Counted from the first letter of the stretch, positions 13,616 to 40,262 are shown. The stretch: 64,000 nucleotides of DNA from a virus (IMGVR_UViG_3300029564_000003:69289-133288), one strand, 5' to 3'. The notes: generated by a model not told the origin, from the letters alone. Translations and numbers: made by a program.

Positions 13616-13654
13616 ATATAAAAAAGGGGAGAGTCTACTGGTAGACCCTCCCCA
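13616..13654 (-). terminator. rho-independent terminator (minus strand)
   Basis: Stem GGGGAG(A)GTCTAC/GTAGAC(C)CTCCCC followed by T-run on minus strand (A-run on plus). Confidence 0.5.
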
Positions 13655-13697
13655 GTCCTGTGCGGACTTTATTATATTAATTCAATTATTAATTCAA

Positions 13698-15300: not shown

Positions 15301-15642
15301 TTACTCATCGCCATCTGCGCCAGCCTTGAACAATTTCCCGCAATAATGTCGGGTGATGTTCGCCTTGGCTTTAATCTTGGCGATAGTTGTAATTGTCTTG
15401 CCAGTCAAGTTGTTGACCTGCGTCTGCTCTGGGATATACTGCGAGTCAATAGTGATTCCCTCGAACAAACGAATCGATATATCAGACTTCTCATCAGCGC
15501 TAGACAGAGCCTTGAAAATCTCTTCCTCGATTGCGTTGTATACATCCTCGACAACAGACTTCCTGATTCTGGCAGACCGAGCCGCCATCTTTATGATTTG
15601 AGCCTTGGTATAGACGGTCTTCGGCTTATCATTGTTTTCCAT
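15301..15642 (-). CDS. HU/IHF-like histone-like DNA-binding protein
   Basis: 113 aa; N-terminal KAQIIKMAARSARI...VEDVYNAIEEEIFKAL and the beta-arm region match the HU/IHF family pattern. Confidence 0.7.
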   Translation of the reverse strand: MENNDKPKTVYTKAQIIKMAARSARIRKSVVEDVYNAIEEEIFKALSSADEKSDISIRLFEGITIDSQYIPEQTQVNNLTGKTITTIAKIKAKANITRHYCGKLFKAGADGDE

Positions 15643-15827
15643 TCAATCATCCTTTCCGTAAAGACCGACATGAAATCTCGGTTCAAACCTTTATTTCAAT
15701 AGAGGCTTCCATATATTGAGATTTCAAAAATCAACATATGACCTAGATTTCATGTTGTTTGTTCATTTTGGCAAAAGTTGCATATAACCTTAATTATATG
15801 CTGTTTATGTATTTTAGAGGGTAGGGT

Positions 15828-18788
15828 CTACACAGCGTTTTCCTCTCGTTTACGCTGTCGATATCTCTGCATCTTCAAACGCTTTAACTCTCTCTTATGT
15901 TCCTTCTGACACTCCTCGCAACGCTCGGTTGCAGAGTCGTACACGCTAACCTCGAACCACTCACCGCAATCAACGCACTGAACAGCCTTGGTTTGCGGAT
16001 TGAGCTTGTCAGACAGATTCTCGTAGATTACATCACCGTAGCACAACCACAGGGCTGTTTTGTTAGCAGACTTCTTGATTCCGTATAAGAACTTCACCAA
16101 GATGTCGACGACCTCTTGCTCGGTATATCCGAACTTAGACAATGCATCTCGAATCTTATCGGCGATGCGCTGATTCTTCATCTGGGTGCGCATATAACGC
16201 TCGCTCTTATCGGCCTTGCTAGATGACATCGCAGCATCGACGTTGAGATAATAAGCCTTATCGAACTTGCAATACTCGACGATGAGCGGGTCGGTTTCCT
16301 CCTCGATGATTCTTCCGTTGGATGTGAACGCGACATCGAACTCGATATTGGGGTCGTGCATCAACATCGCACAGTCTATTTTGCCGATTCCGAGTTTCCG
16401 CGTGTTGATTCTCGGATTCGGGATGACGGCCTCAAGCTTGTTGACGAAGCTGAGATTCGCATCTACGATTTGAGAATCTGTCTTGTCCTTCGCGTACTTG
16501 AAGAAGTGGGGGAGTGGTTGCCCTGTGAAGGCCGTCAGCTTCTTGTTCATATCCTTCGGACGCTCTGGTTTATAGAGGGTTTTTGCGTAATCGATAACGT
16601 AGTTGTTTTCCATACAAAGAATCTTGATTAGCTCGACAGCCTCCTTTTGCTCCTCAAGTGTTCCGTCGACAAACACGTCGCTGTTCCAAATCTTAGAGAT
16701 GTTGTTGCTGTAGATGCCGATGTTGCCACCGACGAACGCCGCATTCAATCCAGCGTATATCGCCTTGTTGTCGAGATGAACAGGGGATGCCTTCTTCATA
16801 TCGTAGTAAAGCGGGACGATATCGAACTTCTCGATGTTGCGCTTTGCCACGTCGATGATGGTCTTATCGGCCACCATGAGCAATTTGTCACCGTCGCAGT
16901 CAAATTGAAGCACCCTAGAAATAAGGTCTTTGCAGCTCGTATAAACAGCATCGGTACAATACCAGTTCCTCAGCTTATCACGACGCTCTTCATCGACACC
17001 GCGAGCGGCGACGTTCTTCCTTATCGCATGTTCCAAAAATAAGTGAGGAGACCTCAGACAATCAAGCTCATCGTTCTTCCTGAACAGCCAACAGAACACC
17101 TCGCCGTCATCGAGCAGCCCATTTGGATTGTCTGTACCCATGAACCAGTGTTCGCAAGCGGCATAGAAATCTGGGACTACGAATGTATACTTACCATGGA
17201 TATCGAGCTTTCCAGCCTTGCACCGCTTGATGATACTGTCCTTGATTCTCCTGATATGAGACTTCGTGTACTCGTCATTGATAAGCTCGGGGTATAACTC
17301 GATGCACTTCTGAAATGACGTCTTGCTCTTATTGTATGGCGTGATATCGAACATCGACTTCACGTTTCGAATAGATGAGCACATGTTCTCAAGCTTGTAC
17401 ACGGACTGTCGTGCTATCGAGGCAATCTCATCATCGGCGATATCGGTGAGCGACTGCAACATCTGGTAGTTGATGGTCGCGTCCTTTATCCGCTCTTCCT
17501 CCTCGTTTGTGAATCCTGCGGTGCATCCGTTGTCGTGGTACTTCTCCTTGTAATCATCCCAAGAGTCATAGAAACCCGAGAGCTTGAACTGACTCTTCGT
17601 GAATATCACCTGAATATCCTCATCGATTACGTCATGTTCCTCGCCGTAGATGTCCTTGATGATTGGCGAGCACCCATTTTCACGTATGAACTCGTCGAAA
17701 GGGAACGCGCACAGCAATCCCTTAATCCAAGGTATGCGCACCATCTTGTTGTTCTGCAAGATGCCGAACGCATTTGGCAGCATCATACCAGCTCCATCGG
17801 TATGCTCAATCTCACGATGGCCGCACTCTCGCGTCACGCTGTAATCGACATCGCTGACGAAGTCATAAGTTCCATATACCTCGGTCGCGAAGTCATCGAT
17901 GACGATGCACTTGTCGATATCAAACTCTTCCCACACATCGGTGGCAGAATTCGATAAGGCGTTGTAGGCGAGATACTTGTTCGGATTTATTCCACCCTTT
18001 GCATTGATATCATCGAGTGTCAAACCGCACATGATTGACTTCTCGCATCTGCGCCACACGGACTCCTTGACGAACACGCACTTCTTCGTTCGAATCTGAC
18101 CAGCGGAAGAGGTGAAGTAGATATACCTCTCACCCTTGTAGGTGAATCCGTTGAAAATCAAATCCTTGAGGACGTCGAAGTAGAACACCCGCACAATCAT
18201 GAAGTCATCGGTGAATTCGTCAATCTCCGCACCGATAGTCCTCGTGAAATACGAATCGAACACGGCGATTACGTCATCCTCGGACACAGTCGACTCGTCA
18301 AGCTTCCTGATGTGATGATGCCGGTTCGATGAATCGTTCGCCTCGACCTTGTTCGACAGGAGGGATAATAGCTTCTGCTTGACCTCGTTCGCCTTCTTAG
18401 TCTTCATATCCGCCAAGCTCTTGTAGTATGCGTAATCCACGGCGATGTCATTTACCGTGTCTGCATCGTCCCCGTGTATCGAGAAATCATACTCACCAGA
18501 CATCATGAGCTTGATATCCGACACGTCCACTCCGAACTCCGCCAGCTGAGACTCAAGCTGTCTGGTGCCAGTTATCGTTCTCTTGACACCGTTGGCGTTC
18601 ACTATGAACCCGCCGTTGACCAGCCTGTTGCGCTCAGCCCTCAGCTTGTGGTTGAGCATGTGGAGTCGGCGCTCGCGCTTGCTGTAGAAATTCGAGGTAT
18701 CTACATTGAGTATCTTCACCTGCTTATCTAGCGCCAATAAGAACACATCCTTCCATTTCCGAAACCTTTCTTTCCCCGTTTGAAACAA
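15828..18788 (-). CDS. large protein with DxDGD metal-binding motif and C-terminal zinc ribbon; candidate non-canonical single-subunit (two-barrel/YonO-like) RNA polymerase
   Basis: 986 aa; motif QFDCDGDKLLMV resembles the universal DxDGD catalytic loop of multisubunit-type RNAPs; C-terminal CVDCGEW...CEECQ zinc ribbon; first gene of the late-strand unit next to the divergent control region; the family assignment is inference. Confidence 0.35.
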   Translation of the reverse strand: MFQTGKERFRKWKDVFLLALDKQVKILNVDTSNFYSKRERRLHMLNHKLRAERNRLVNGGFIVNANGVKRTITGTRQLESQLAEFGVDVSDIKLMMSGEYDFSIHGDDADTVNDIAVDYAYYKSLADMKTKKANEVKQKLLSLLSNKVEANDSSNRHHHIRKLDESTVSEDDVIAVFDSYFTRTIGAEIDEFTDDFMIVRVFYFDVLKDLIFNGFTYKGERYIYFTSSAGQIRTKKCVFVKESVWRRCEKSIMCGLTLDDINAKGGINPNKYLAYNALSNSATDVWEEFDIDKCIVIDDFATEVYGTYDFVSDVDYSVTRECGHREIEHTDGAGMMLPNAFGILQNNKMVRIPWIKGLLCAFPFDEFIRENGCSPIIKDIYGEEHDVIDEDIQVIFTKSQFKLSGFYDSWDDYKEKYHDNGCTAGFTNEEEERIKDATINYQMLQSLTDIADDEIASIARQSVYKLENMCSSIRNVKSMFDITPYNKSKTSFQKCIELYPELINDEYTKSHIRRIKDSIIKRCKAGKLDIHGKYTFVVPDFYAACEHWFMGTDNPNGLLDDGEVFCWLFRKNDELDCLRSPHLFLEHAIRKNVAARGVDEERRDKLRNWYCTDAVYTSCKDLISRVLQFDCDGDKLLMVADKTIIDVAKRNIEKFDIVPLYYDMKKASPVHLDNKAIYAGLNAAFVGGNIGIYSNNISKIWNSDVFVDGTLEEQKEAVELIKILCMENNYVIDYAKTLYKPERPKDMNKKLTAFTGQPLPHFFKYAKDKTDSQIVDANLSFVNKLEAVIPNPRINTRKLGIGKIDCAMLMHDPNIEFDVAFTSNGRIIEEETDPLIVEYCKFDKAYYLNVDAAMSSSKADKSERYMRTQMKNQRIADKIRDALSKFGYTEQEVVDILVKFLYGIKKSANKTALWLCYGDVIYENLSDKLNPQTKAVQCVDCGEWFEVSVYDSATERCEECQKEHKRELKRLKMQRYRQRKREENAV

Positions 18789-19202
18789 TATTTGTTTTTA
18801 TATGTTTTCACTTTGTTTATCAACAAAAAACATTGTTTATAAACAAAAGCATCATAAAAACAAATACATTTTACAATTATAGCATATATATTCGCCAGTT
18901 AAAACCATCATCTATCACATCCATGGAAATAACATCGACATTCAACATGGCTAATAATACACATGCTTAATCGCGCACGTTGATATCCGTATACCCAGTT
19001 ATCAAAGTTTTATACGGTCGTATCTCTTCTTCACGAAATCTACATATAGCAACAACTAAAAGCAGTCACTTTGAAACTCGCGCCAAACTGATGGCGTAGT
19101 CTCGCCTTCGGCTCGCTACGCAGATGGGAGATAATCATACGGCCATTGGTTATAGCATACATCTATTGATTATACGATTGCAACCGTGATATCATCTTCG
19201 TC

Positions 19203-19270
19203 AAAACTTGTCACTTTGATTTCCTCGTTATAATATATATATAACGGTTTTTTCAAAGTGACAAGTTTTG
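19203..19270. repeat. 68-bp perfect palindrome, copy 1 (18-bp arms CAAAACTTGTCACTTTGA, centre CGTTATAATATATATATAACGG)
   Basis: Read directly from the sequence; identical second copy 191 bp downstream. Confidence 0.9.
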
Positions 19271-19393
19271 GAGTTGTATAATTTTGTGTTCATTCCATGA
19301 AGATGTTATATGAGTGTATAAAGTTTTAAGTTGTGGGTATAGAACCAACGACGACCAGAGATGTTTCATCGACGGTCGTTTTTAAGGAAATTT

Positions 19394-19461
19394 AAAACTT
19401 GTCACTTTGATTTCCTCGTTATAATATATATATAACGGTTTTTTCAAAGTGACAAGTTTTG
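19394..19461. repeat. 68-bp perfect palindrome, copy 2
   Basis: Identical to 19203..19270. Confidence 0.9.
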
Positions 19462-19490
19462 CTTGTATAACGATAAGGAGCCTTTGTCTT

Positions 19491-19646
19491 ATGCTGAATA
19501 ACATAAAGAATTATATGCGTTACGCCCTAAGAGATGAAATATCTCATTTTTACAGAGAATCAGTTCCTTACGTAGAATCATCTCTCATCCCCGAGGCGGA
19601 GCGCAGCGGAGACCTCGGCATCAGTTTAGCGCTAATTTCAAAGTGA
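19491..19646 (+). CDS. hypothetical small protein (51 aa)
   Basis: AAGGAG RBS 10 nt upstream of the ATG; lies between the palindromes and the iterons. Confidence 0.25.
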   Translation: MLNNIKNYMRYALRDEISHFYRESVPYVESSLIPEAERSGDLGISLALISK

Positions 19647-19770
19647 CAAGTTTGGCAACTTGAAGTGACAAATTCTTATGAATTTGAAGTGACAAACTTT
19701 TACAAGTTTGAAGTGACAAGTTTAACAACTTAAACAATAAGTTTGGCAACTTAAACAACCAAACACGTAA
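19636..19770. repeat. iteron array: 4-5 direct repeats of GAAGTGACAA(G/A)TT at ~24-bp spacing, plus GTTTGGCAACTT x2
   Basis: Seen in sequence; shares the GTGACAA core with the palindrome arms and with a single site at ~19063. Confidence 0.85.
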
Positions 19771-20736: not shown

Positions 20737-20805
20737 ATGATGTTATAAAACGACTATGGTCGTAAGACAGCTATGACAATCAGATAATACAATTGGATAT
20801 TTTTT

Positions 20806-20837
20806 GAGGGCGTCTCTTCGGAGGCGTCCTTTTTTTC
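20806..20837 (+). terminator. rho-independent terminator
   Basis: GGGCGTCTC-UUCG-GAGGCGTCC hairpin (two G-U pairs) followed by TTTTTTT. Confidence 0.6.
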
Positions 20838-21462
20838 GACGTTTTTATAAGCGCCTTTTTTTATTTGCATCTTTAAAAGACAAACAAACTTAAATACAGG
20901 GTTTATAAGCACGTCGTCTATGAAACACCCCTATGGAACGTCGATTTCAGACGGTGTGATTGTGTGACAAAACCGCTGGTAGATAGGCGTTTTTATTACT
21001 TGGTATGGGTGCGGTAATTCGTGTTTCAAGTATGAAGTTTTTATGCAGGGTATGTGTAGGAGTCTTGTTTCCGCTGGTAGACGGCTGATTACAGGGGTAG
21101 GCGAAGGTCTATTTTTGGCTGATTTTCAGTCGATTTTCAAGGCTGTTTTTGAGGTTCTCTCTAGGGCGTTTAGAGGTTCGCAAACGACAAGGGTGTTTTG
21201 GGTTCGGGTGTGATTTTGGGTTGCTGTTTGATGTGTTGCAAACGACAGGGGTGAGGGTGTGGATTTGGTGTTTTGGGTTCGGGATTTTGTGGCGTGTGTG
21301 TGGGGTGTATACGGGTTTGGTTTCAGGTTGTTTTTTGGGTCGGGGTGTGTGGGTGAAGCCCGTGGGGGGGCTGGGGCGATTCCCTAGTCGTTTACTAGGT
21401 TTAAACATGCCCCGTCCGGCACTTCGCGCCGTGCTTGTTCAAAAGTCACCGTGAGCTTTTGG

Positions 21463-21502
21463 GGATGAAAAAACGTGAGGTACCGAACATGTTTTTTCCT
21501 AC
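21463..21502. terminator. bidirectional-looking hairpin AAAAAACGTG...CATGTTTTTT
   Basis: 10-bp stem with A-run 5' and T-run 3'. Confidence 0.35.
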
Positions 21503-22495
21503 TACTTGCATAATAAAACAACCCCCTCTGTATAGTAACGCGCCGCGTTATTATATGAAACCGATTGTTAGTATATATAGTTAGAAGTTTGTCTAACAAT
21601 AGTAACGCAACGCGATACTATGCAACCCAAACCCAAACCCAAACCTTAAACCTATACTTGAACGTTAAACATAACGCCCCAAACACAACGCCTACAATCT
21701 GCCAAACCCAACTAACATATACCCCTCTGAGGGCCTCAGATGCCCCAAAAACGCCCGTTCAGTTTTCCACCTACACTTACCCCCGCCAACTGGTTATCGC
21801 CCCGTATACACGTTTCCGCAGGTAGAACCCTATATTTAGGTACCCGAACTATCGTCACTGGTATGCTGGTACGTACCAGTTGCAACACGATAGCGTACAC
21901 GTGTACGTTAAACGACACTTCGACCCGTTCTGTCGTCGATCTTATCGTGTGCTTATTTTATGTTTTCAACGTTCGACCCCTTGCATATACCTACGCTATC
22001 CGCTATATACGCGTCGCGTATGCAATATGCACGTCTAACGCGTATCCTATGCAGTCGATCGACCGCGTTTACCTGCTATTATACCGTTTACGCGCTATAT
22101 CGCCCTATTCTATGCATATCAACGCGTATACGACACCATTCTATGCAAGTACCTAAACTATGCCGTTTACCTGCGGTTTCACTAAACCATCATATATAGC
22201 ACCACTGTTTACCTGCTGTTTTGTTCAATTAAAATAGTTATTGCAATACATACCGCACCATGCGATATTGGTTTTGCCGCAAGGGGGCACGCCCCGAACG
22301 GCCGCCCGCTACGGGATGCGACCCGCGTAGCGCGTACTTTGAGAACCGAATATCGAGTTTATGAAGACTTTATGAAGACGCTAAAACGGTGCTAACATAG
22401 GGCTTGCCCCACGGGGCGGGAACCTTGATAAGAGCATACGTGGTAGGGCGCGGGGACGGGGACTGAACTGCGCCGCTACCGTGAGCGGCACTTAT

Positions 22496-23282: not shown

Positions 23283-23603
23283 ATGCACGTTACCAACATG
23301 AACAGCCCGCGCACGGGTAAGCCCGTGGCCAATCAGTTCATCATCACGGACGGCGGTATTACCGTGTTTCAGTCCTACAATTCTACCATCGCAACCATCG
23401 ACCGAAAGGAACATACTATCACGCTTGGCAAGAATTGGGACTATTCCGTTACAACTGCGAAATACCGCAACTTGTTTTTCGAGGGCGAGGGCTTTAGCCA
23501 CTTGCGGACGACGCAGAAAATCGAATCATATTTGAATTTGGTTGACCGTGGCGGGTACGTCTATGACGATTGGGGCGTTGAGTACTATATCGAGCTTGCA
23601 TAA
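23283..23603 (+). CDS. hypothetical protein (107 aa)
   Basis: GAAAGGAACC RBS before internal ATG of ORF 23214..23603. Confidence 0.5.
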   Translation: MHVTNMNSPRTGKPVANQFIITDGGITVFQSYNSTIATIDRKEHTITLGKNWDYSVTTAKYRNLFFEGEGFSHLRTTQKIESYLNLVDRGGYVYDDWGVEYYIELA

Positions 23604-23647: not shown

Positions 23648-23677
23648 TTGACAACAACATAGACATGGGTTTACAAT
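23648..23677 (+). promoter_or_regulatory. sigma70-like promoter TTGACA-N18-TACAAT preceded by the palindrome GCGCAAAATAATTTTGCGC
   Basis: Hexamers and spacing read from the sequence; about 30 nt upstream of the 23708 gene. Confidence 0.4.
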
Positions 23678-23707
23678 GAACCTGTAAGAAAAACCATGAG
23701 GAAAACC

Positions 23708-24061
23708 ATGCAAACCCCTGATAGTTTCACGATGAATGGCCGCGACGCTCTGCGGAAAGTTCTGCGGAAGTTTACCGTCACGGACGAGGGCGCGGACGGC
23801 ATGGGTACGCTGTCAAATCTTTCCACGGAATTTTCATACAATGACAACCCGTGGTATAGCGTTGTCGTGGATGAAACGCGAGACGAGGAAAATTGCTACG
23901 GAATTTTGTACGTCACCCTGTATTACACAAACCCCGAGTGGGGCGTGTGTATCGCGGCGGAAAATGAATGCCGCTATGACGGTATGCACGAGCGCACGGA
24001 GATTTTGGCGCGTGAGCTTGTTGAGTGCGTCGGAATTATCGAAACTCAACTTATGGAATAA
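23708..24061 (+). CDS. hypothetical protein
   Basis: GAGGA RBS; 118 aa. Confidence 0.5.
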   Translation: MQTPDSFTMNGRDALRKVLRKFTVTDEGADGMGTLSNLSTEFSYNDNPWYSVVVDETRDEENCYGILYVTLYYTNPEWGVCIAAENECRYDGMHERTEILARELVECVGIIETQLME

Positions 24062-24167
24062 ACGGTTGTGCGGAAAATGTGGGGGTGGAAAAACCAAACC
24101 ATCCCCAACCCGCGCGGCATGATACAATAGACCCGACGGAAAAACAATCAGTAGGAAGGCTGGAAAA

Positions 24168-24416
24168 ATGACGCTGAAAGCGTTCACGGAAAAATGGATG
24201 GGACACGCTGATAACGGCTATACCGTCAATCGGTGCTTCTCATTCAAGCCTTGGTTCGGAGAATTTGAGGGGCAGACCGTGTACGTGGCTGCGGAATATT
24301 CCCGTGGCTGGTGGGAGGCGGTTCATGCCGAGACGAAAGACGGAAAATCTTTCGAGATGACGTGTACGAACGGAGAATCTAAATCAGACCTAATCAATAT
24401 GATTATGGGTTGCTAG
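24168..24416 (+). CDS. hypothetical protein (82 aa)
   Basis: Preceded by the conserved leader ACGGAAAAACAATCAGTAGGAAGGCTGGAAAAATG. Confidence 0.5.
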   Translation: MTLKAFTEKWMGHADNGYTVNRCFSFKPWFGEFEGQTVYVAAEYSRGWWEAVHAETKDGKSFEMTCTNGESKSDLINMIMGC

Positions 24417-24452
24417 ATTGCACGGAAAAACAACAGTAGGGAGAACGGAAAA

Positions 24453-24677
24453 ATGTATACTGGTTATCTTATGCCCATCGAGCAGGACATTGTCAACTGG
24501 CGCATGGAAAATCCCATGCTTGACACCATCATCACCATCATCATGTTGCTGCTCACCATCGCCGCAATCGTCTACATGCTGTCGCTCATGCGGAAAAATC
24601 AGCTCATTGAGGAGGAGCGTAGGCGCGAAGAGCGTAGGCGTAAGCGCGCGTGGATTCGCGCCAACGGCGGGCTGTAA
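24453..24677 (+). CDS. small membrane protein (one TM helix, basic C-terminus)
   Basis: Hydrophobic stretch LDTIITIIMLLLTIAAIVYMLSL; the same conserved leader as the 24168 gene. Confidence 0.5.
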   Translation: MYTGYLMPIEQDIVNWRMENPMLDTIITIIMLLLTIAAIVYMLSLMRKNQLIEEERRREERRRKRAWIRANGGL

Positions 24678-24750
24678 TAAAGCCAACGGCGGACTTTAGG
24701 CACGGCGGAAAAACACACACACAAACACACACGAGAGAGGACACGGAAAA

Positions 24751-24942
24751 ATGACTGTTAAAGAGTTCGTGGGCGCTCAGTCCACTCTGGAAAACCCCAT
24801 GAAGTTCAAAATCATCGCGCCCAATGTCAACGGCACTGGGGAAAAACTGACGGTGGAGAACTACGCAACGTTCGCGCCCATGGAAATTTTGATGTGGACT
24901 GCAACACCTGGTGGTAGTTATATCAACCTGTTCGTGGGTTAG
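24751..24942 (+). CDS. hypothetical protein (63 aa)
   Basis: ACGGAAAAATG start context. Confidence 0.45.
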   Translation: MTVKEFVGAQSTLENPMKFKIIAPNVNGTGEKLTVENYATFAPMEILMWTATPGGSYINLFVG

Positions 24943-24951
24943 GCGGAAGAT

Positions 24952-25245
24952 ATGAACAACAAGAAAAAGACTTGGCTTGCAATGATTATCATCGGATATA
25001 TCGTTGTCCTCATGGCGTATGTTATCAATGTTGTCGCGGAAAATCAGTACGCTAGTACTGCGGAAAATAAACCTACCGCCGCTGCGGAAAATACATCCGC
25101 TGTCGCGGAAGATTTGCCTACCGCTATCGAGTGCGGTTCGTGCGGTGCGCATGTGTACGAATACTGGTACTGGGAAAATATCAATGACGGTACGCCTGTA
25201 AAGATATGCCGTTACTGCTATGAGAACTGTATAGAGAATCAGTAG
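24952..25245 (+). CDS. membrane-anchored small protein with AEN repeats and C-terminal Cys cluster
   Basis: N-terminal TM helix; repeated AENxx peptides are encoded by repeated GCGGAAAAT DNA motifs. Confidence 0.45.
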   Translation: MNNKKKTWLAMIIIGYIVVLMAYVINVVAENQYASTAENKPTAAAENTSAVAEDLPTAIECGSCGAHVYEYWYWENINDGTPVKICRYCYENCIENQ

Positions 25246-26040
25246 CGGAGAACACCGCCACGGAGAATTAGTTGCCGATACGCTACCGCTTGCCGCTACG
25301 GAAAATCTCTAGCCCTACGCTGTCGCGTGGGGCTTCTGTGCTGTCGCGTTGGCGCGTGGAACTTTTCGCCATCGCGGAAAAATCGGTATGTTAGTACCAT
25401 CAATTTATAAAGTTAACCAACGGTAACAATGTAGTAGTATCAATATGTTAACCAACTATAACTATTAAGTTAACCATAGTTAACAAATGCACCATGCACC
25501 ACGCGACCCATCGTGCCACGTATCCACGCGCCACACGGAAAATCGGCCCAACGGAAAATTAGACGCGCTACAATCGCGCATCAGACGAGCAACACCACGC
25601 GCCACACAACGCCCTGGAACGCCACGGAATAACGCAAGCCTACCCACACACCCGAGACGCACGCAACGGCGGAAATATAGGCATCACAAGCCGTCACGGA
25701 AGATTGTACGTGCTGGCTCTAGCCGCTCACAGTCCATCGGCCACACGGAAAATCATACTGTGATTCAATTGTGTGGAATGTGTGAACCTATTGCAACCAC
25801 AAGGACAATCATATATATTGTAATCAATCGGTAGTCGAGCCGCTGGAAAATCAGAACATATCCAACGGAGGGGCATGGAAGAACCGTTACACTTTCTCTA
25901 CAGTTGTGCCAATATCTGCGGGTATCTCTACGCTTGTGTACCTACCAACGCTCACACGGAAAATATGTAGACCATGTGAATCTCTATATATATCTTGCGC
26001 CGCCACGGAAAATCAGATAGAGTATAACCACTAGATACAA
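25240..26040 (+). repeat. non-coding array dense in ACGGAAAAT(C)-type motifs (~14 copies / 800 bp)
   Basis: No convincing ORF; motif copies at ~25299, 25375, 25537, 25554, 25669, 25697, 25747, 25844, 25957, 26007 plus variants. Confidence 0.7.
25412..25484. repeat. four GTTAAC(C) palindromic repeats within ~75 bp
   Basis: AGTTAACCAACGGTAACAATG ... TGTTAACCAAC ... AGTTAACCATAGTTAACAAATG. Confidence 0.8.
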
Positions 26041-26062
26041 TCATCAACGGATAGGGTGAGCA

Positions 26063-26329
26063 ATGTATAATCCACTGCACAACGCGCACAACCAATACCA
26101 TCCCGCCATCGACCGCGCGGATAAAATCATGTGCCACTATCGCCGCGTTGGCGGAACTGTTGCAAGGCTTGTCGGAAAATATATCTGCACAGGATACAAC
26201 ATGCCCTGTATCGTCATATACAAGCGCGCTGACGGAAAATGTACCATCAAGAAATATGCCAAGGTACCTAAGTGTTATGCCCAAGCAGTAGCCCAAGCGG
26301 AAAATGATACCTACGAGCCATACTATTAG
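26063..26329 (+). CDS. hypothetical Cys-containing protein (88 aa)
   Basis: AGGGTGAG RBS; three ACGGAAAAT motifs lie inside it in different reading frames. Confidence 0.4.
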   Translation: MYNPLHNAHNQYHPAIDRADKIMCHYRRVGGTVARLVGKYICTGYNMPCIVIYKRADGKCTIKKYAKVPKCYAQAVAQAENDTYEPYY

Positions 26330-26452
26330 GTGGTGGCTTGAGTTGTGTGCATATATGTAGGCTTTGTGAATCTGCAAACAACAGTTGCACGGAAAATCAT
26401 TTGGTGTAATATATAAGTCGTAAGCAAGAGTGCAACCACGAGAGGAAACACC

Positions 26453-26662
26453 ATGCGTGAAATCTGGGTCAACCCCAAGAATCTCCCCAGGTTCATCAAT
26501 CTCAATGACATGATTACTGTGTATGACAACGATGATGATGTGTACGCCACCCTCAAGGTGCATTACAGCGGAATCTTTGAGAGCGGCGGGCTAGAGGGGG
26601 CTGAGTGGTTCATTGCCACGAACATTGATACGGGTGAAATCGTGCGTATCGTGATTGAGTAG
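26453..26662 (+). CDS. hypothetical protein (69 aa)
   Basis: GAGAGGAAACACC RBS. Confidence 0.5.
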   Translation: MREIWVNPKNLPRFINLNDMITVYDNDDDVYATLKVHYSGIFESGGLEGAEWFIATNIDTGEIVRIVIE

Positions 26663-26670
26663 AGGGCGCG

Positions 26671-26699
26671 GGTAGGTGAGAGCCTACCCTCTTTTTTTA
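26671..26699 (+). terminator. rho-independent terminator
   Basis: GGGTAGG-TGAGAG-CCTACCC + TCTTTTTTT. Confidence 0.65.
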
Positions 26700-26712
26700 T
26701 AGACGGAATAAA

Positions 26713-26773
26713 GTTAGCTTACGCTAACAATATAAGTTAGCTTTAGCTAACAATAAGTTAGTTAAAGCTAACA
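26713..26773. promoter_or_regulatory. three tandem 16-bp palindromic operator-like sites: GTTAGCTTACGCTAAC / GTTAGCTTTAGCTAAC / GTTAGTTAAAGCTAAC
   Basis: Seen in sequence at 26713-28, 26736-51, 26758-73; each is followed by AATA. Confidence 0.7.
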
Positions 26774-27257
26774 ATAAAATGCTACCAACGAATAACCAAT
26801 TTAATGAACACATTATGAAGATTCAATGAATACACAGGCAACACTTGACAACCACAACGCAATCAGGTTGTCAAGCAATCCGACACGGAAAAATCTAATT
26901 ATGTATTTATGCACAGTTCTCTACACAACTCAACCCAAACAACAAAACCGCAGGTAAACATAGCCGTTAGAATCGCGTGTATGGGAATATACATAACATA
27001 TGCCTATACTGTCTAGGATATGCAAACATCGCCCCAAATAGGCACATCACAGAGACGTACAAGACCATGCGATTGCGGAAGATTCGGACGATATGCACAG
27101 ACAACGAGCCAAACAACAACCATATGTGTAGCAATTGTGATGAAAAACATATACATAGTTTTCATCTTGACACACAGCGACAAAACCACATACAATATAG
27201 CCAACGCAACCAACAAAGGTTGCTAACGCAACCAACCGATAAGAGAGGACATACACC

Positions 27258-28533: not shown

Positions 28534-28602
28534 TCTTGTCTCATAAAGTTATGAAGAAGTTATGAACTTAACAATCACACTAGACACAACACGGCACAGT
28601 GC

Positions 28603-28690
28603 TATTATATAGTTAATCGGTAGTCGCAGGTTGGCAATACCAACCCAAGGGGCAGATAAGAGCCGTGATTTATTGAGCTACAGTTGTGCG
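28603..28690 (+). repeat. ~90-bp conserved intergenic element, copy 1 (TATTATATAGTTAATCGGTAG...GAGCCGTGATTTAT..AGCTACAGTT)
   Basis: Near-identical copy at 35102..35180; partial copy ~25826..25900. Confidence 0.75.
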
Positions 28691-29038
28691 TATTTGTAAA
28701 ACACATGCACAACATCGAACTAGTGTTCTATCTGACTACATAAGCATAAGCCAATGAGAGCCGATTTAAGGCGTTGTATTTCCGATACTGGACACTTACA
28801 CCACACACGCCACGAACGCCCGAAATATCGCAACGTAAAGCGTTTTAGTACGTTAATCCTGGTATCAGTACGGCATTGATAGAGCGCATATATACGCGAT
28901 TGGCGCAATGGTTCTAAAGATTGGGATATGTGTTGAAGTTGTGAAGATGAAATATCCCGATGAGCAACGCCAAGACATGCGATATAGTGTAGTCACGCCG
29001 AGCGGATAGGGCGCGGCACGATTGAAAAGAGGATATTA

Positions 29039-32253: not shown

Positions 32254-32348
32254 CAAGGTCGGAAAATCTCACGCTCCATGGTCGGAAAATCTGATATAGT
32301 ATAACCAACGAGAAGCAACAGGACGCCGAGCGGAAGTAGGTTGTTACC

Positions 32349-34925: not shown

Positions 34926-35101
34926 CGAGTTCGATACGCCCGCTTGTTAATCGTTTCGCCTGTATCTTTTCAGATTTCTGGTGTGCTGTTGCGACTTGCA
35001 GCACACCAGATTTTGCGTTACGCGCAATTGTGTGTGAAATATGGATGCTGAATTATTTCCAATTCTCAGTATGAATGTACGCCGAGTCTGGTATTATATA
35101 G

Positions 35102-35180
35102 TTAATCGGTAGCCGAGACGAACCCAAATAGGGGAAGCAGGGGCAAGAAGGAGCCGTGATTTATCTAGCTACAGTTCTAT
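35102..35180 (+). repeat. ~90-bp conserved intergenic element, copy 2
   Basis: See 28603..28690. Confidence 0.75.
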
Positions 35181-35299
35181 AGAAACTACAAATCATGGCT
35201 AAATGTGTTGGGTTTATGAATTGGAAATCGTCACCGAAACACAGCGCGAGGCAGGGTAATATATCCATGTGGTCAAAACAGCAAGAGAAAGGAACCACA

Positions 35300-37241: not shown

Positions 37242-37317
37242 CCGTTGACGCTTGACATATTCCGCACATGCGCTTAACATGGAGGTATGAATAATAACAT
37301 GGGGGAGCTGTGCGGAT

Positions 37318-37533
37318 ATGTCGAGCATCAAAAGCGAGATTGGAAAGGTCGATAGAACACCGTTCAACACGACGATAAGAACCGACCTATTGAATGACTT
37401 CAAACGATACTCAAAGGACACTGGCGTTCCTATGAACGTGCTTGTAGAGCTATTCATGGCTGGTGTCGTAGACGGAAAATTCGATATCGCCATAGTCAAA
37501 GGCGGGGTTCATCTGGATTTTCAGGAAGAATGA
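37318..37533 (+). CDS. putative ribbon-helix-helix (CopG/Arc-like) regulator
   Basis: N-terminal beta-strand segment RTPFNTTIRTDLL followed by two predicted helices; 71 aa. Confidence 0.4.
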   Translation: MSSIKSEIGKVDRTPFNTTIRTDLLNDFKRYSKDTGVPMNVLVELFMAGVVDGKFDIAIVKGGVHLDFQEE

Positions 37534-37596
37534 CAACTGTGTTGATTTCGTGTAGCCCAAAATGACTGTATAAAACATGTGATATATGGGTATGAG

Positions 37597-37788
37597 ATGC
37601 ACGTTGCGGAAAATCTGAACGAAGGGATTACCATGTACGAGGACGATGTTAAGGACGAGTTGCGGAAAATCGCGGAAAGCATGGTCGATGCGTCCGATGG
37701 CCTGACGGTTGCCGATGCGATGGATGCGATTCGTTATTATCTCGATGTGATTCTCAATGACATTCAGCGAGAGTTGGAGGACAAGTAA
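37597..37788 (+). CDS. hypothetical acidic protein
   Basis: Internal start of ORF 37579..37788; an alternative ATG at 37633 has a better RBS. Confidence 0.4.
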   Translation: MHVAENLNEGITMYEDDVKDELRKIAESMVDASDGLTVADAMDAIRYYLDVILNDIQRELEDK

Positions 37789-38039
37789 TGCCAAGGTGCG
37801 CACATGAGCGCGTGTGTACCGAGTACATGCGCCGCTACGGAAAAATCCTATCGAAGCATTGCCCGAATCCGAGTCGATGCCCGTTCTATCAGAAGGAGAA
37901 CACCGTGACAATCAAGGAGTTCATGGATGATTTCATGGACGGCATGGCGGATGCGTTCTGTGTCAATGACAACGGCGTTACCAAGGTGAAGCGCAAGACC
38001 GTTCCCAGGGACATGGTCGATGATTGCTACGGTGTGTGA
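37788..38039 (+). CDS. hypothetical Cys-rich protein (83 aa)
   Basis: CxxxC...CPxxxRC pattern. Confidence 0.45.
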   Translation: MPRCAHERVCTEYMRRYGKILSKHCPNPSRCPFYQKENTVTIKEFMDDFMDGMADAFCVNDNGVTKVKRKTVPRDMVDDCYGV

Positions 38040-38434
38040 TTGATGTGGAGACATTTGACTGGGACGATGGATTCTATTGTGAATACGATGTAAACCAAGA
38101 GGGGCGATTTGAATCTTCGTTCAATGATAAGCTCTTCGCGACGCTGTTCACGACACTGGTCGTAGCTACATTGCTGTTCGTTATCGTCAGTCTTGGACTG
38201 TCTAGCTGTGCGGACAAACATGAAGCGCAGGAAGCGACAAATGATACGGAACTTGCAACCATTTATGATACGGCAAAAGAAGATGATGGTTTCTTGTATG
38301 AAGGTCGCGGACTGTGTTCTGAGTGCGGCAGGGAGGGCTACACGATTGACGATAACATCGTGTGCCGTAACGAGGATTGCCCTAATTACGGCCTTGCAGC
38401 ACCAGCAATCATGACGGGGACGGAAAATCAATAG
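38024..38434 (+). CDS. membrane/lipoprotein-like protein with C-terminal zinc ribbon
   Basis: TM segment FATLFTTLVVATLLFVIVSLGLSSC (lipobox-like LSSC); CSECG...CRNEDC; start codon uncertain (TTG/GTG). Confidence 0.35.
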   Translation: MLRCVIDVETFDWDDGFYCEYDVNQEGRFESSFNDKLFATLFTTLVVATLLFVIVSLGLSSCADKHEAQEATNDTELATIYDTAKEDDGFLYEGRGLCSECGREGYTIDDNIVCRNEDCPNYGLAAPAIMTGTENQ

Positions 38435-38457
38435 ACGATTCTGATTGAGAGGTTCAC

Positions 38458-38952
38458 ATGCTTACCGAAGACGAGGTTGTGCAGAGCGTGCGCAATGATA
38501 TCATAAGGGCTAGCATCCTGCTTGGCAAGGCTCTTGAATCCATGAGCAAGCCGAATAAGGATTATAAGAAGTGCTGGGGTTATCTCAATACAGCGAACCA
38601 TCATTCGCGCAACGCGGAAAATATGTGCTTCGATAGAGCGAATTGGGTGAGAGGTGAAATAGTGGTTGACATCTATAAAGTGGTAGACGATAACATTGCC
38701 GACAAGTGGTTCAAGGCTACGTTTGTCGGAGAGAAAACATATCTCAAAGGACTTACAGTTGTGAACGGTCGAGAGTACCATATCAAATTCATGGGTAAGT
38801 TCGGTGATAAGGGATGGCTTTGGTTTGTGATTCGTGACCCGAACACCAACGCTGTATATAAGCTGATGCTCGGATACAAGGAGGCCCAATGCCCGTATAG
38901 CAGCATCGGTACATTCCTGTCGAACTGGAAGATTGCCGATTGGGTTGATTGA
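38458..38952 (+). CDS. hypothetical protein (164 aa)
   Basis: GAGAGGTTCAC RBS. Confidence 0.5.
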   Translation: MLTEDEVVQSVRNDIIRASILLGKALESMSKPNKDYKKCWGYLNTANHHSRNAENMCFDRANWVRGEIVVDIYKVVDDNIADKWFKATFVGEKTYLKGLTVVNGREYHIKFMGKFGDKGWLWFVIRDPNTNAVYKLMLGYKEAQCPYSSIGTFLSNWKIADWVD

Positions 38953-39009
38953 TATTTAGCAACATACATATAGTTACGATAACTAGACGGAAAATCTAAG
39001 GAGTTACAA

Positions 39010-39183
39010 TGGGTGCAATCAAGAAGCTGTTCGGGCGCAAGAGCAAGACGTGTCACAACATCTCGCTTGAGGACGGAAAATTTACCTGCTCGCGCTGCAA
39101 TGGCAGTGTCGAGTTCAAGGGTCGGGATGATTTGGCAATCGCCTACTGCCCGATGTGCGGCAAGCCCGTGGTGAAGGGGTAGA
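39010..39183 (+). CDS. small zinc-ribbon protein (57 aa)
   Basis: AAGGAG RBS; CSRCNG...CPMCG. Confidence 0.45.
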
Positions 39184-39186
39184 GGT

Positions 39187-39375
39187 ATGGAAATTAATAT
39201 CGGTGCGCCTGAAGCGATATACTTATCCATACTCATTATAGATGCTATTTTTAGAGTTTACCGAGATGCTGTAGAATCAACCAATAGAATCGACCTGGCG
39301 GCGAGCATCGTAGCTACCGTCCTGTCTGTTTGTATCGATACTGCTATTCTTATCTGGGGCGGATTCTTCTCGTAG
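39187..39375 (+). CDS. small hydrophobic membrane protein (62 aa)
   Basis: Two hydrophobic segments; GGTAGAGGT RBS. Confidence 0.4.
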   Translation: MEINIGAPEAIYLSILIIDAIFRVYRDAVESTNRIDLAASIVATVLSVCIDTAILIWGGFFS

Positions 39376-39466
39376 AAATATTGTTATTTTATGTATAATA
39401 TATGTTGTTTTATACAAGTACAGTCTGACGGAAAATCTGTGGTAAGATGACGCATGTATTCTGTCT

Positions 39467-40186
39467 GTGCCTATGAGAACGGATGTTGAGATGGGTGTTA
39501 AATCTGCGAATTTCAGCTATGGCGCTATGAGCCTTGTTGGCCTGTATCATACGGGCAATGTGTCCATCAAGATGACGACATACGTCGAGGGTGAATCGAC
39601 AAGGGGCTTGCCAATCACAATCTATATGGCGAAGGCAGCGGACATGGAAAATATGTATAACAATTCCGATGTATGGGTCAACCTGACAAATGGAATAGAA
39701 GCTGTCAGAGACCTTGACAGCTATGATTGTACTTATAATTTCTGTCGCTTTCAATCAACCAGCTTCGAGCAGCGCGACTGGGGAGCGGCAATTGACTCAA
39801 TGCCCGATGACATGCTTGTGAATCTGGCTGTCGGAAAACCTCAGACGATTATCGACTTCGGTGCCAACAAGAACTGTCCTCGTGCGATGCGTCAAGGCAT
39901 CCCGATTGCAGCTGATATTCTAGCACGTGCTTGGGATATCGAGACAGATGATAAGCTGCGTATCTTCAGCCGAGACGGAAAAAATATCATCACGGTAGAC
40001 GATGATACGCGAATGGATATACTGCGCAGCATGACCAAGCGTCAGCGCAGTAGGCTGAATTATTTCAAGAAGTATGTTTGCACCGACAAGATTGAGTTCA
40101 ATTTGTTGTGCGGAAAAACCACGCACGATAACGACTACGATTTCCATGTCGATATGCTGCATAACTGTTCCAAGTGTATCGAGTAG
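39467..40186 (+). CDS. hypothetical protein (239 aa)
   Basis: GTG start in the track; alternative ATGs at 39473 and 39491. Confidence 0.4.
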   Translation: MPMRTDVEMGVKSANFSYGAMSLVGLYHTGNVSIKMTTYVEGESTRGLPITIYMAKAADMENMYNNSDVWVNLTNGIEAVRDLDSYDCTYNFCRFQSTSFEQRDWGAAIDSMPDDMLVNLAVGKPQTIIDFGANKNCPRAMRQGIPIAADILARAWDIETDDKLRIFSRDGKNIITVDDDTRMDILRSMTKRQRSRLNYFKKYVCTDKIEFNLLCGKTTHDNDYDFHVDMLHNCSKCIE

Positions 40187-40227
40187 ACATATCATAGGTC
40201 AGACGGAGAATTTATCAATCGTGGAGG

Positions 40228-40262
40228 ATTCGTGTATACGGGTTCTCCACGATTTATTTTGA
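40228..40262 (+). terminator. rho-independent terminator
   Basis: ATCGTGGAG...CTCCACGAT stem + TTTATTTT. Confidence 0.55.

What the first reader, a model, noticed from the sequence alone, without database searches (positions are those of the whole stretch)
25240..26040. 800-bp non-coding array packed with the ACGGAAAAT motif: candidate binding-site sponge or structured ncRNA
No credible ORF is present; the only long ORF (25487..25834) is R/T/P low-complexity. The block carries about 14 motif copies at irregular 25-110 bp spacing, four GTTAAC(C) palindromes (25412-25484), and a partial copy of the ~90-bp conserved element (~25826-25900).

The plus strand is strongly A/C-biased. A dedicated non-coding region that concentrates a motif scattered through the early transcripts suggests a decoy/titration element or a processing hub for whatever factor recognises the motif.
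Basis: partly seen in the sequence, partly recalled or inferred. Interest (0 to 1): 0.7.

Follow-up and report, generated by a model that had tools for sequence, protein, structure and literature searches.

The report
Strand-specific 9-mer studding phage early transcripts
The flagged block is a genuinely gene-free stretch inside an early operon of a human-gut SPbeta-like phage. It and its neighbouring genes are packed, on the transcribed strand only, with the 9-base word (A)CGGAAAA(T). Related phages conserve this word and expand it into a 1.4-1.9 kb gene-free cassette, which points to an undescribed multi-site regulatory element whose reader is still unknown.

Summary
**Verdict: a real, family-conserved element. 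Its nucleic-acid level of action (RNA or DNA) and its reader are unresolved.**

- **Motif counts.** ACGGAAAAT occurs 14 times in the window against 0.7 expected. The core CGGAAAAT occurs 31 times against 2.8 expected, with 28 copies on the + strand. The block holds 6 exact copies, or 11 with close variants, not 14.
- **Non-coding status.** 25246-26062 is ORF-free. No gene was called there, and the 115-aa ORF has no Pfam match and no homolog.
- **Not a self-contained array.** 35 of 42 strict copies lie in two predicted early transcription units (23678-26699 and 37281-40254). They occur in all three codon phases, and none lies upstream of either unit's promoter.
- **Relatives.** Related Clostridia phages with a YonO-type RNA polymerase carry, at the same position, a 1.4-1.9 kb ORF-free array of 28-34 copies. 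It has an internal sigma-A-type promoter and flanking terminators.
- **Rejected readings.** The motif is not a promoter element, is not helically phased, matches no Rfam family, and shows no special RNA fold.
- **Best reading (about 0.4).** A recognition site read on the transcripts, with the block as the reduced local version of a sponge or landing-pad RNA.
- **Main rival (about 0.3).** Orientation-dependent DNA sites like mycobacteriophage stoperators.

The parts
23648..23677 (+). Sigma-A-type promoter-like site (TTGACA-18-TACAAT, 11 of 12). Predicted start of transcription unit A.
23958..26397 (+). Motif-dense domain. It holds 24 strict copies (CGGAAAA[AT]) and 35 family copies, all on the + strand, across small genes and the ORF-free block.
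24952..25245 (+). Small membrane/zinc-ribbon gene whose linker carries GCGGAAAAT three times plus GCGGAAGAT (AEN/AED repeats). Its homolog sits directly upstream of the array in relative L119.
25246..26062 (+). The ORF-free block (the finding). It holds 7 strict and 11 family motif copies.
25298..25306 (+). Exact ACGGAAAAT copy.
25535..25559 (+). Two exact copies 16 nt apart (25535-25543 and 25551-25559). The second is followed after 9 nt by TACAAT.
25745..25753 (+). Exact copy.
25956..25964 (+). Exact copy.
26005..26030 (+). Exact copy followed after 9 nt by TATAAC. This 25-nt module recurs at 32283-32307 (92% identical) and is the likely promoter of gene 26063-26329.
25412..25484 (.). Four GTTAAC palindromes in a 75% A+T stretch. 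They are operator-like sites of a second, lineage-variable motif type (compare AATCGTTAACAAC in L031 and L009).
25487..25760 (+). C-rich, T-poor segment (T 12%). It is covered by the spurious 115-aa ORF.
25791..25819 (+). Promoter-like site (TTGCAA-17-TATATT, 9 of 12) feeding the conserved leader.
25811..25910 (+). Copy of the conserved leader element (AATCGGTAGTCG ... CTACAGTT). The same element lies directly downstream of the arrays in L002, L003, L004 and L040.
26670..26699 (+). Intrinsic-terminator-like hairpin plus T run. Predicted end of unit A.
37252..37280 (+). Promoter-like site (TTGACA-17-TAACAT). Predicted start of the second motif-dense unit, E.
37473..40222 (+). Second motif-dense domain. 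It holds 11 strict and 16 family copies, mostly inside genes and in all three codon phases.
40217..40254 (+). Terminator-like hairpin (17 pairs). Predicted end of unit E.

Best explanation
**What is shown**
- The block is the ORF-free middle of a roughly 3-kb early transcription unit of a human-gut SPbeta-like phage that has a YonO-type RNA polymerase.
- That unit and one other early unit carry, on the sense strand only, many copies of the 9-mer (A/G)CGGAAAA(T/A).
- The 9-mer is kept across related phages whose early proteins are otherwise not conserved.
- In those relatives the homologous position holds a 1.4-1.9 kb ORF-free cassette (terminator, sigma-A-type promoter, about 1.4 kb holding most of the 28-34 copies, terminator).

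**What is inferred**
- The 9-mer is a recognition site read on the transcript by a sequence-specific RNA-binding protein or endoribonuclease, of phage or host origin and not identified.
- That factor acts on the mRNAs of the two marked units.
- The non-coding block, and the larger cassette in relatives, acts as a multi-site sponge or landing pad that buffers or times that factor's action.
- In this window the block is a reduced version embedded in an operon. It also houses two promoters and four GTTAAC operator-like palindromes that probably regulate it.
For: **Enrichment and strand bias**
- The enrichment and + strand bias are far beyond chance.

**Confinement to transcription units**
- 35 of 42 strict copies fall in two predicted promoter-to-terminator units that make up 23% of the early region (binomial 2e-16).
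- There are no copies in the 3.9 kb upstream of unit A's promoter or in the 0.4 kb upstream of unit E's promoter.

**Nucleic-acid-level selection**
- Copies inside genes occur in all three codon phases (AEN/TEN, DGK, RKI). The constraint is therefore on the nucleic acid, not the protein.

**Conservation in relatives**
- The motif clusters are conserved on the early-gene strand: L002 has 33 copies against 4 on the other strand, and L008 has 42 against 2.
- Early proteins are hardly shared between the window and these relatives.

**Positional homology of the block with the relatives' arrays**
- The same zinc-ribbon gene lies upstream.
- The same leader element lies downstream.

**Cassette architecture in two lineages about 65% identical**
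- L002, L008 and L119 share: terminator, then about 300 bp, then TTGACA-18-TATCAT/TATCGT, then about 1.4 kb without an ORF, then terminator.
- In L002, 23 of the 28 array copies lie between that promoter and the downstream terminator.
- Overlapping frames are 'conserved' together, which is the pattern of nucleotide rather than coding conservation.
- Motif columns are better conserved than spacers: 0.70 against 0.57 for L002 versus L119.

**Compactness of the site**
- The 185-site logo is a compact 9-10-mer with no flanking -35 or -10 and no helical phasing. It behaves as a stand-alone site rather than promoter architecture.
Against: - No transcription data exist. The units are consensus predictions only.
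- Motif copies are not predicted to be more single-stranded than with shuffled flanks (41 sites, Wilcoxon p 0.53).
- The region folds no better than chance, and there is no hairpin association.
- In L002 and L119 some 5-15 mostly degenerate copies lie between the upstream terminator and the internal promoter. They would reach RNA only by read-through.
- Palindromic, clearly DNA-type motifs are interleaved with the 9-mer and even abut it: GTTAACAACGGAAAAA in L031 and GTTAACCAACGGTAAC in the window.
- In L138 four 11-bp tandem copies sit just upstream of a consensus promoter, which looks like DNA-level action.
- No candidate RNA-binding protein was found in the window.
- The window block lacks the bracketing terminators seen in relatives.
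Confidence: 0.4

Rival explanations
1. **DNA-level, orientation-dependent protein sites ('stoperator'-like).** A phage or host DNA-binding protein recognises the asymmetric 9-mer in duplex DNA and blocks or modulates RNA polymerase travelling in one direction, silencing or punctuating units A and E. The dense ORF-free arrays would then be high-capacity binding platforms or insulators.
For: - The site is asymmetric, has many copies, and its orientation tracks the direction of transcription. These are the defining features reported for mycobacteriophage L5-type stoperators (PMC9283540).
- The 9-mer is interleaved with and abuts palindromic operator-type motifs.
- Copies occur in promoter spacers just after the -35: window 26385-26397 (TTGCACGGAAAAT), L002 (TTGACAtACGGAAAAA) and L011 (TTGCACgCGGAAAGA).
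- Copies occur as 11-bp tandems upstream of a promoter in L138.
- Copies lie upstream of the internal promoter in L002 and L119.
- There is no RNA accessibility signal.
- SPbeta, whose structural module this phage shares, uses a repeated DNA element (SPBRE) bound by the MrpR repressor (PMC10516654).
Against: - A density of 8-12 sites per kb is far beyond what a roadblock needs.
- Most copies are inside genes or in a long ORF-free cassette, not in short intergenic gaps.
- The main promoters of units A and E carry no copy.
- The promoter-plus-terminator bracket around an ORF-free array in relatives has no obvious purpose under this model.
- No cognate repressor was found. The only integrase-fold protein keeps its catalytic R, HxxR, H and Y residues, unlike MrpR.
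Confidence: 0.3
2. **Replication origin or initiator-titration locus.** The 9-mers would be iterons or weak DnaA-type boxes, and the AT-rich GTTAAC stretch would be the unwinding element.
For: - In unrelated viral contigs, 15-bp tandem repeats ACGGAAAATCCGnnn lie inside genes with an N-terminal HTH_36 domain, one of them also with DnaB_2. One further array lies just upstream of a DnaB helicase gene. This is the lambda-O-like origin arrangement.
- Relative L138 has five DnaA boxes (TGTGGATAA or TGTGGAAAA) next to motif copies.
- The block has a 75% A+T segment and direct, co-oriented repeats.
Against: - Spacing is irregular, from 11 to more than 100 bp.
- Copies spread over 2.5-3 kb of coding sequence in two units 11 kb apart.
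- No HTH_36-type initiator was found in the window or the relatives' loci.
- There is no DnaA box with up to one mismatch inside the block.
- The replication genes lie about 30 kb away.
Confidence: 0.08
3. **Promoter element.** The 9-mer would be an upstream box for an activator or sigma-appropriation system, like the T4 MotA box, or an UP-like alpha-CTD site, making the block a cluster of middle promoters.
For: - Four window copies are followed after exactly 9 nt by a -10-like hexamer (25552, 26006, 26390, 32283).
- The module CGGAAAATC-N8-TATAACCA is duplicated.
Against: - Across 398 sites in 13 sequences only 11 have TAnnnT at that offset. Similar small peaks occur at other offsets, and no -35 sits at a fixed distance.
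- The logo carries no flanking information.
Confidence: 0.07
4. **Neutral debris.** The block would be decayed remains of duplicated small-gene cassettes whose ribosome-binding or linker sequences happened to contain the word.
For: - The early region is a rapidly shuffling set of promoter-gene-terminator cassettes.
- Some real starts use ...ACGGAAAAATG (window 24453 and 24751; L138).
Against: - The exact 9-mer persists across lineages with about 65% array identity and unrelated early proteins.
- Motif columns are conserved above spacers.
- The motif occurs in all three codon phases.
- ATG-adjacent copies are no more often followed by ORFs than random ATGs: 29% against 25%.
Confidence: 0.05

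Closest known systems
Stoperators of cluster A mycobacteriophages (L5 gp71-type repressor; PMC9283540)
   Same: A short asymmetric site, tens of copies per genome, with orientation tied to the direction of transcription, acting within transcription units rather than only at promoters.
   Different: - Stoperators are 13-mers placed singly in short intergenic gaps and at promoters.
- Here a 9-mer occurs at 8-12 per kb, mostly inside genes or in a long ORF-free cassette, only in some units.
- No gp71-like repressor was identified.
SPBRE elements bound by MrpR (YopR) in Bacillus phage SPbeta (PMC10516654)
   Same: The same broad phage type: YonO-type polymerase and Yon/Yom structural proteins. Both have a repeated element scattered through the early region.
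   Different: - SPBRE is a 15-bp element present once in about ten promoter regions.
- Here the main promoters of the marked units lack the motif.
- The copies form dense arrays.
- No catalytically dead recombinase-fold repressor is evident.
Protein-sponge RNAs such as CsrB/CsrC and RsmY/RsmZ (own knowledge)
   Same: A non-coding RNA carrying many copies of a short GGA-containing word that also occurs near ribosome-binding sites of target mRNAs. 61% of copies read ACGGA, which fits A(N)GGA.
   Different: - Those RNAs are 100-480 nt, present the motif in hairpin loops, and come from chromosomes of Proteobacteria.
- Here the RNA would be up to 1.4 kb and phage-borne in Clostridia.
- There is no loop or accessibility signal.
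- The invariant AAAA(T/A) tail is not a CsrA feature.
T4 RegB endoribonuclease sites (GGAG) in early mRNAs (own knowledge)
   Same: A short sense-strand word marking early transcripts for a phage-timed RNA-level event. Some copies overlap translation start regions.
   Different: - The RegB word is 4 nt and sits mainly in Shine-Dalgarno sequences.
- No decoy array is known for it.
- No RegB homolog was detected here.
Origin iterons inside lambda-O-like initiator genes (HTH_36/DnaB_2 proteins)
   Same: The identical 9-mer forms tandem repeats in such genes in unrelated viral contigs.
   Different: - Those repeats are strictly 15-bp tandem, coding (TEN-P-x linkers), and sit next to helicase genes.
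- The window copies are irregular, spread over kilobases, and no such initiator is present.
Pseudo-ToxI repeats of phage PhiTE (RNA mimic of a type III antitoxin; own knowledge)
   Same: A phage-encoded repetitive non-coding RNA that neutralises a sequence-specific host endoribonuclease.
   Different: ToxI units are regular 36-nt tandem pseudoknots. Here there is no regular unit and no predicted structure.

Membership tests
Csr/Rsm-type protein-sponge RNA | A discrete non-coding transcript with its own promoter and terminator | tested here: inconclusive
   The window block has no bracketing terminators and lies inside an operon. The homologous arrays in L002, L008 and L119 do have an internal consensus promoter and flanking terminators. 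These are predictions only.
Csr/Rsm-type protein-sponge RNA | GGA motifs presented unpaired or in hairpin loops | tested here: not met
   The probability that the 9-mer is unpaired is 0.088 against 0.053 with shuffled flanks, Wilcoxon p 0.53. There is no hairpin association.
Csr/Rsm-type protein-sponge RNA | Bound by CsrA/RsmA | not testable with these tools
   This needs binding assays. The host genome is not available.
Mycobacteriophage-type stoperators | Asymmetric site in many copies whose orientation follows transcription | tested here: met
   28 of 31 core copies and 42 of 47 strict copies are on the + strand. Relatives show 33 against 4 and 42 against 2.
Mycobacteriophage-type stoperators | Sites placed singly in short intergenic gaps and at early promoters | tested here: not met
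   Most copies are intragenic or in ORF-free arrays at 8-12 per kb. None lies at the promoters of units A and E.
Mycobacteriophage-type stoperators | Cognate monomeric HTH plus stoperator-domain repressor | not tested
   No Pfam or PHROG hit of that kind appeared among about 60 window proteins scanned. No structure-based search was run.
SPbeta SPBRE/MrpR system | [quoted passage not shown] | tested here: not met
   There are no copies within about 190-300 nt of the promoters at 23648 and 37252. No -35 or -10 sits at a fixed offset from the motif.
SPbeta SPBRE/MrpR system | Recombinase-fold repressor that has lost its catalytic residues | tested here: not met
   The only Phage_integrase-domain protein (40338-41132) retains R, HxxR, H and Y. 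It has no PDB match to MrpR.
Replication-origin iterons (lambda O / HTH_36 type) | Regularly spaced tandem direct repeats | tested here: not met
   Gaps range from 11 to more than 140 bp with no dominant period.
Replication-origin iterons (lambda O / HTH_36 type) | Initiator gene carrying or adjoining the repeats | tested here: not met
   A profile built from nine such initiators finds nothing in the six-frame ORFs of the window or of nine relatives' loci.
T4-type middle promoter (MotA box) | Box at a fixed distance upstream of a -10 element, replacing the -35 | tested here: not met
   Only 11 of 398 sites have TAnnnT at offset +17, with similar peaks elsewhere.
Any curated RNA family (Rfam 15) | Covariance-model match | tested here: not met
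   Only tRNAs reach the gathering score. The best hit in 25100-26200 is JUMPstart on the minus strand at E 3.8.

The most novel reading that the evidence does not exclude
A clade of gut SPbeta-like phages encodes a long (up to about 1.4 kb) non-coding early RNA carrying about 20-30 copies of ACGGAAAAU. This RNA acts as a sponge or decoy for a sequence-specific host RNA-binding protein or defence endoribonuclease (for example a CsrA-like or toxin-type RNase). The same word is written into selected early mRNAs so that their fate is coupled to it. This would be the first phage-borne multi-site protein-sponge RNA in Firmicutes.
Probability: 0.25. Interest if true: 0.85.

Novelty: new variant of a known kind. 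Interest (0 to 1): 0.6.

Why it matters
- If the 9-mer is read on RNA, these phages would provide a new class of viral sponge or decoy RNA. They would also give a handle on an unknown RNA-binding factor in gut Clostridia, where post-transcriptional control is poorly charted.
- If the 9-mer is read on DNA, this would be a much denser, unit-wide form of orientation-dependent transcriptional silencing than the stoperators known from mycobacteriophages.
- Either way the element marks specific early operons in an uncultivated family of large SPbeta-like phages with a YonO-type polymerase. It also gives a simple sequence probe (three close copies of the word) for finding relatives.

Tried and rejected
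- **Nucleotide matches to known phages.** There were none with near or distant search.
- **Structured RNA.** Fold z-scores are -1.8 and -1.9 on the two strands. Rfam gives nothing.
- **Coding potential of the 115-aa ORF.** There is no Pfam hit, no homolog and no called gene.
- **Promoter-element idea.** No -10 or -35 sits at a fixed distance.
- **Helical phasing or curved DNA.** No periodicity appears at 10-11 bp.
- **Motif followed by a hairpin (antisense terminators).** No enrichment.
- **Link to real start codons.** Motif-ATG copies are followed by ORFs of 40 or more codons in 29% of cases, against 25% for random ATGs.
- **'Never C before CGG' as a recognition feature.** It is explained by genome-wide CCGG avoidance.
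- **DnaA-box reading.** No box with up to one mismatch lies in the block.
- **HTH_36 initiator in the window.** None found.
- **MrpR-like dead recombinase.** The catalytic residues are intact.
- **Fetching relatives with the ribbon-helix-helix protein or the recombinase.** No loci were returned.
Early proteins are barely shared with relatives.
- **TGGAAAAT 'variant lineage' (L018, L049).** It cannot be separated from ordinary sense-strand codon usage.
- **Literature search for the word itself.** It returned only unrelated primer sequences.

Full report
**Context**

The window is part of a roughly 133-kb phage contig from a metagenome assembly. It is identical over 12.3 kb to ENA ERZ27235212 k119_136267. 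Other contigs carrying the same tail-tube protein come from human gut samples.

- Bases 1-18788 encode, on the minus strand, a structural and packaging module. It includes the terminase and portal and Pfam families named after SPbeta proteins: YonD_N, YonB, YomW and YomU_Tube.
- A 986-aa protein at 15828-18788 matches Pfam RdRP (PF05183, E 1.6e-7, above its cut-off) and phrog_8308. I read this as a YonO-type two-barrel RNA polymerase (PMC5467207).
- From 19789 onward the plus strand carries small early genes, then a replication module.
- No nucleotide match exists in the phage collection. The portal is only about 28% identical to SPbeta-like, Lactococcus 949-like and Bacillus phages.
- Relatives found through the polymerase are 49 IMG/VR contigs of about 115-145 kb and 13 genome contigs, 11 of them titled as Clostridia (including a Faecalicatena contorta isolate).

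**Checking the observation**

The motif is real and strand-specific.
- ACGGAAAAT occurs 14 times against 0.69 expected, all on the + strand.
- The core CGGAAAAT occurs 31 times against 2.8 expected, with 28 on +.
- With one mismatch there are 62 against 18 expected.

The block count needs correcting. The block holds 6 exact copies, 8 within one mismatch, and 11 under a broader family pattern, rather than about 14.

The block is non-coding.
- The source's own gene caller leaves 25246-26062 empty.
- The 115-aa ORF has no Pfam match and no homolog among 5.8 billion clusters.

- Four of the window's six GTTAAC sites lie at 25412-25484.
- The A/C bias is local to 25487-25760, where T is 12%.
- The partial conserved element at about 25811-25910 is confirmed, with two more copies at about 28600 and 35089.

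**The block is not the whole story**

The coding kilobase before the block carries as many copies as the block's own kilobase.
- Using consensus promoter and terminator scans, the early region splits into predicted units.
- 35 of the 42 strict copies (CGGAAAA[AT], + strand) fall in just two units, which together make up 23% of the early region (binomial 2e-16).
  - Unit A runs from the promoter at 23648 to the terminator at 26670 and holds 24 copies (7.9 per kb).
  - Unit E runs from the promoter at 37252 to the terminator at 40217 and holds 11 copies.
- There are no copies in the 3.9 kb before unit A's promoter, none in the 0.4 kb before unit E's, and almost none in the cassettes between them.
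- Inside genes the word sits in all three codon phases: GCG GAA AAT, GAC GGA AAA T and CGG AAA AT. It is therefore selected as nucleic acid, not as peptide.

**Relatives**

- The same word clusters on the early-gene strand of related phages. L002 has 33 copies against 4, and L008 has 42 against 2.
- Early proteins are barely shared with the window.
- A logo from 185 distinct sites is a compact [A>G,T]CGGAAAA[T/A] with no informative flanks.
- The absence of C before CGG simply reflects genome-wide avoidance of CCGG: 6 observed against 118 expected.
- Spacing is irregular with a minimum of 11 bp and no helical period.
- The window block is positionally homologous to the relatives' arrays.
  - The zinc-ribbon gene 24952-25245 has a homolog directly upstream of the L119 array.
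  - The leader motif ACTTTCTCTACAGTT lies directly downstream of the arrays in L002, L003, L004 and L040.
- In L002, L008 and L119 the array is a cassette: terminator, about 300 bp, a TTGACA-18-TATCAT (or TATCGT) promoter, about 1.4 kb without a credible ORF, then a terminator. L119 is only about 65% identical to the other two.
- ORF fragments in two overlapping frames are 'conserved' together, which is the pattern of nucleotide conservation.
- Motif columns are better conserved than the rest: 0.70 against 0.57 for L002 versus L119. Alignment bias toward repeats may contribute to this difference.

**A second motif type**

- Lineage-specific, near-palindromic words accompany the 9-mer:
  - AATCGTTAACAAC in L009 and L031, including a 30-bp tandem run;
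  - GTTTTGAAAAAC in L011;
  - TTTTTAAAAACTTTAA, three times upstream of each early promoter in L021.
- The window's GTTAAC cluster and the GTTAGC-N4-GCTAAC triplet at 26711-26779 belong to this class.
- These look like operators of a fast-evolving dimeric DNA-binding protein.
- They are interleaved with the 9-mer and sometimes abut it.

**What the 9-mer is not**

- It is not a promoter element. Only 11 of 398 sites have a -10-like hexamer at the offset seen in four window copies.
- It is not a known RNA family.
- It is not part of a stable fold.
- It is not preferentially unpaired.
- It is not linked to hairpins.
- It is not linked to real start codons.
- It is not a DnaA box in this window.

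**Mechanism**

Several features say the factor acts along transcription units, on the moving polymerase or on the RNA, rather than at promoters:
- sense-strand specificity;
- confinement within predicted transcription-unit boundaries;
- indifference to reading frame;
- absence from the units' own promoters.

Two readings remain.

1. **RNA-level recognition (about 0.4).** A binding protein or endoribonuclease reads the word on the transcript. This explains strand specificity without further assumptions. It also gives a purpose to the relatives' promoter-to-terminator ORF-free cassette, as a sponge or landing-pad RNA. The window block would be a reduced, operon-embedded version of that cassette.
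2. **DNA-level sites (about 0.3).** These would be orientation-dependent sites comparable to mycobacteriophage stoperators (PMC9283540). This reading is favoured by:
   - the interleaved palindromic operators;
   - copies in promoter spacers;
   - the 11-bp tandem copies upstream of a promoter in L138;
   - copies upstream of the internal promoter in relatives;
   - the lack of an accessibility signal.

   Against it stand the extreme density, the intragenic placement, and the lack of any purpose for the cassette's promoter and terminator.

Origin, promoter-box and neutral-debris readings are minor. The reader of the motif was not identified. About 60 window proteins scanned gave no relevant domain other than a weak ribbon-helix-helix match at 37318-37533.

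**Comparison and novelty**

- The closest known systems are stoperators, SPbeta's SPBRE/MrpR (PMC10516654), Csr/Rsm sponge RNAs, T4 RegB target sites, and origin iterons.
- Defining features of each were tested, and at least one failed for every family (see the membership table).
- I therefore class the element as a new variant of a known kind (multi-site recognition arrays) and not as a member of any described family.
- The literature search found no description of the word.

Noticed in passing
window 15828-18788 (-): A 986-aa protein matches Pfam RdRP (PF05183) above its cut-off and phrog_8308. It looks like a YonO-type single-chain two-barrel RNA polymerase and heads the minus-strand structural module. 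An extended -10 (TGCTATAAT) lies upstream at about 18890.
   Followed up: partly
window, genome-wide: There is strong avoidance of GATC (2 observed, 328 expected), CCGG (6 against 118) and GGCC (63 against 136). This suggests selection against host restriction. A DNA methylase gene lies at 62199-62990.
   Followed up: partly
window 20740-21740: A second ORF-free kilobase, with no gene called. A G/T-rich half with many G runs (21000-21370) is followed by an A/C-rich half (CCCAAA repeats, 21600-21720). Imperfect inverted repeats lie at 21195-21224 and 21622-21651. Relative L138 has the same G/T-to-A/C switch next to five DnaA boxes, so this may be an origin or R-loop region.
   Followed up: partly
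window 19050-19760: This is the divergent control region between the polymerase gene and the early genes. It has at least seven copies of AAAGTGACAAGTTT in both orientations and a perfect 68-nt direct repeat (19203-19270 and 19394-19461) containing a hairpin-like inverted repeat. Relatives carry TGTGGACAA at 41-bp spacing in the same place.
   Followed up: no
window 25811-25910, 28600-28700, 35089-35185; L002 2705-2795 (-): A roughly 90-nt element starts at the -10 of extended -10 promoters (TAATCGGTAGTCG ... GGGGCA ... AGRRCCGT ... CTACAGTT). It is conserved at nucleotide level but in different reading frames in the window and L002. A variable internal hairpin is visible by eye. RNAalifold found no supported consensus structure.
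   Followed up: partly
window 26700-27257: A third ORF-free stretch follows the unit A terminator. It has three GTTAGC-N4-GCTAAC palindromes (26711-26779) and an inverted repeat CTTGACAACC...GGTTGTCAAG (26846-26876). The half-sites resemble KorB-type operators (from memory, not tested).
   Followed up: no
window 26808, 27602, 28532, 29241, 29623; also 25961, 26351, 30176, 32633: Recurrent upstream promoter modules occur directly after terminators and before -35-like TAGACA. Examples are TTATGAAGAnnATGAAT and ATATGTAG-N4-TGTGAA. They suggest a separate class of early promoters with TGTGAA-type upstream sites.
   Followed up: no
loci L067, L078, L097, L139, L149, L161 and others (IMG/VR): In unrelated viral contigs the same 9-mer forms 15-bp tandem repeats ACGGAAAATCCGnnn. 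These lie inside genes with an N-terminal HTH_36 domain (one also DnaB_2) and encode (P)xTEN linkers. One array lies just upstream of a DnaB helicase gene. These are probably origin iterons within initiator genes.
   Followed up: partly
L138 (reverse-strand coordinates 4386-4443; same contig as L021): There is a cluster of three perfect and two near-perfect DnaA boxes (TGTGGATAA or TGTGGAAAA) within about 60 bp. It is flanked by GCGACTGGAAAA repeats and a roughly 250-nt G-free, C-rich stretch.
   Followed up: partly
window 11542-12267 (-), next to terminase 9718-11292: A LAGLIDADG homing-endonuclease gene sits beside the large terminase gene. An HNH endonuclease gene lies at 46536-47138 near three tRNA genes (44651, 44773, 46415).
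   Followed up: no
window 37318-37533 (+): The first gene of the second motif-dense unit encodes a 71-aa protein with a weak ribbon-helix-helix match (RHH_3, E 0.003). It is a possible DNA-binding regulator. No relatives were retrievable.
   Followed up: partly
window 23283-23603 (+); L031, L009, L049, L021: A DUF8033 (phrog_21575) protein is one of the very few early proteins shared across the phage family. In L031 it lies directly downstream of the AATCGTTAACAAC array.
   Followed up: no
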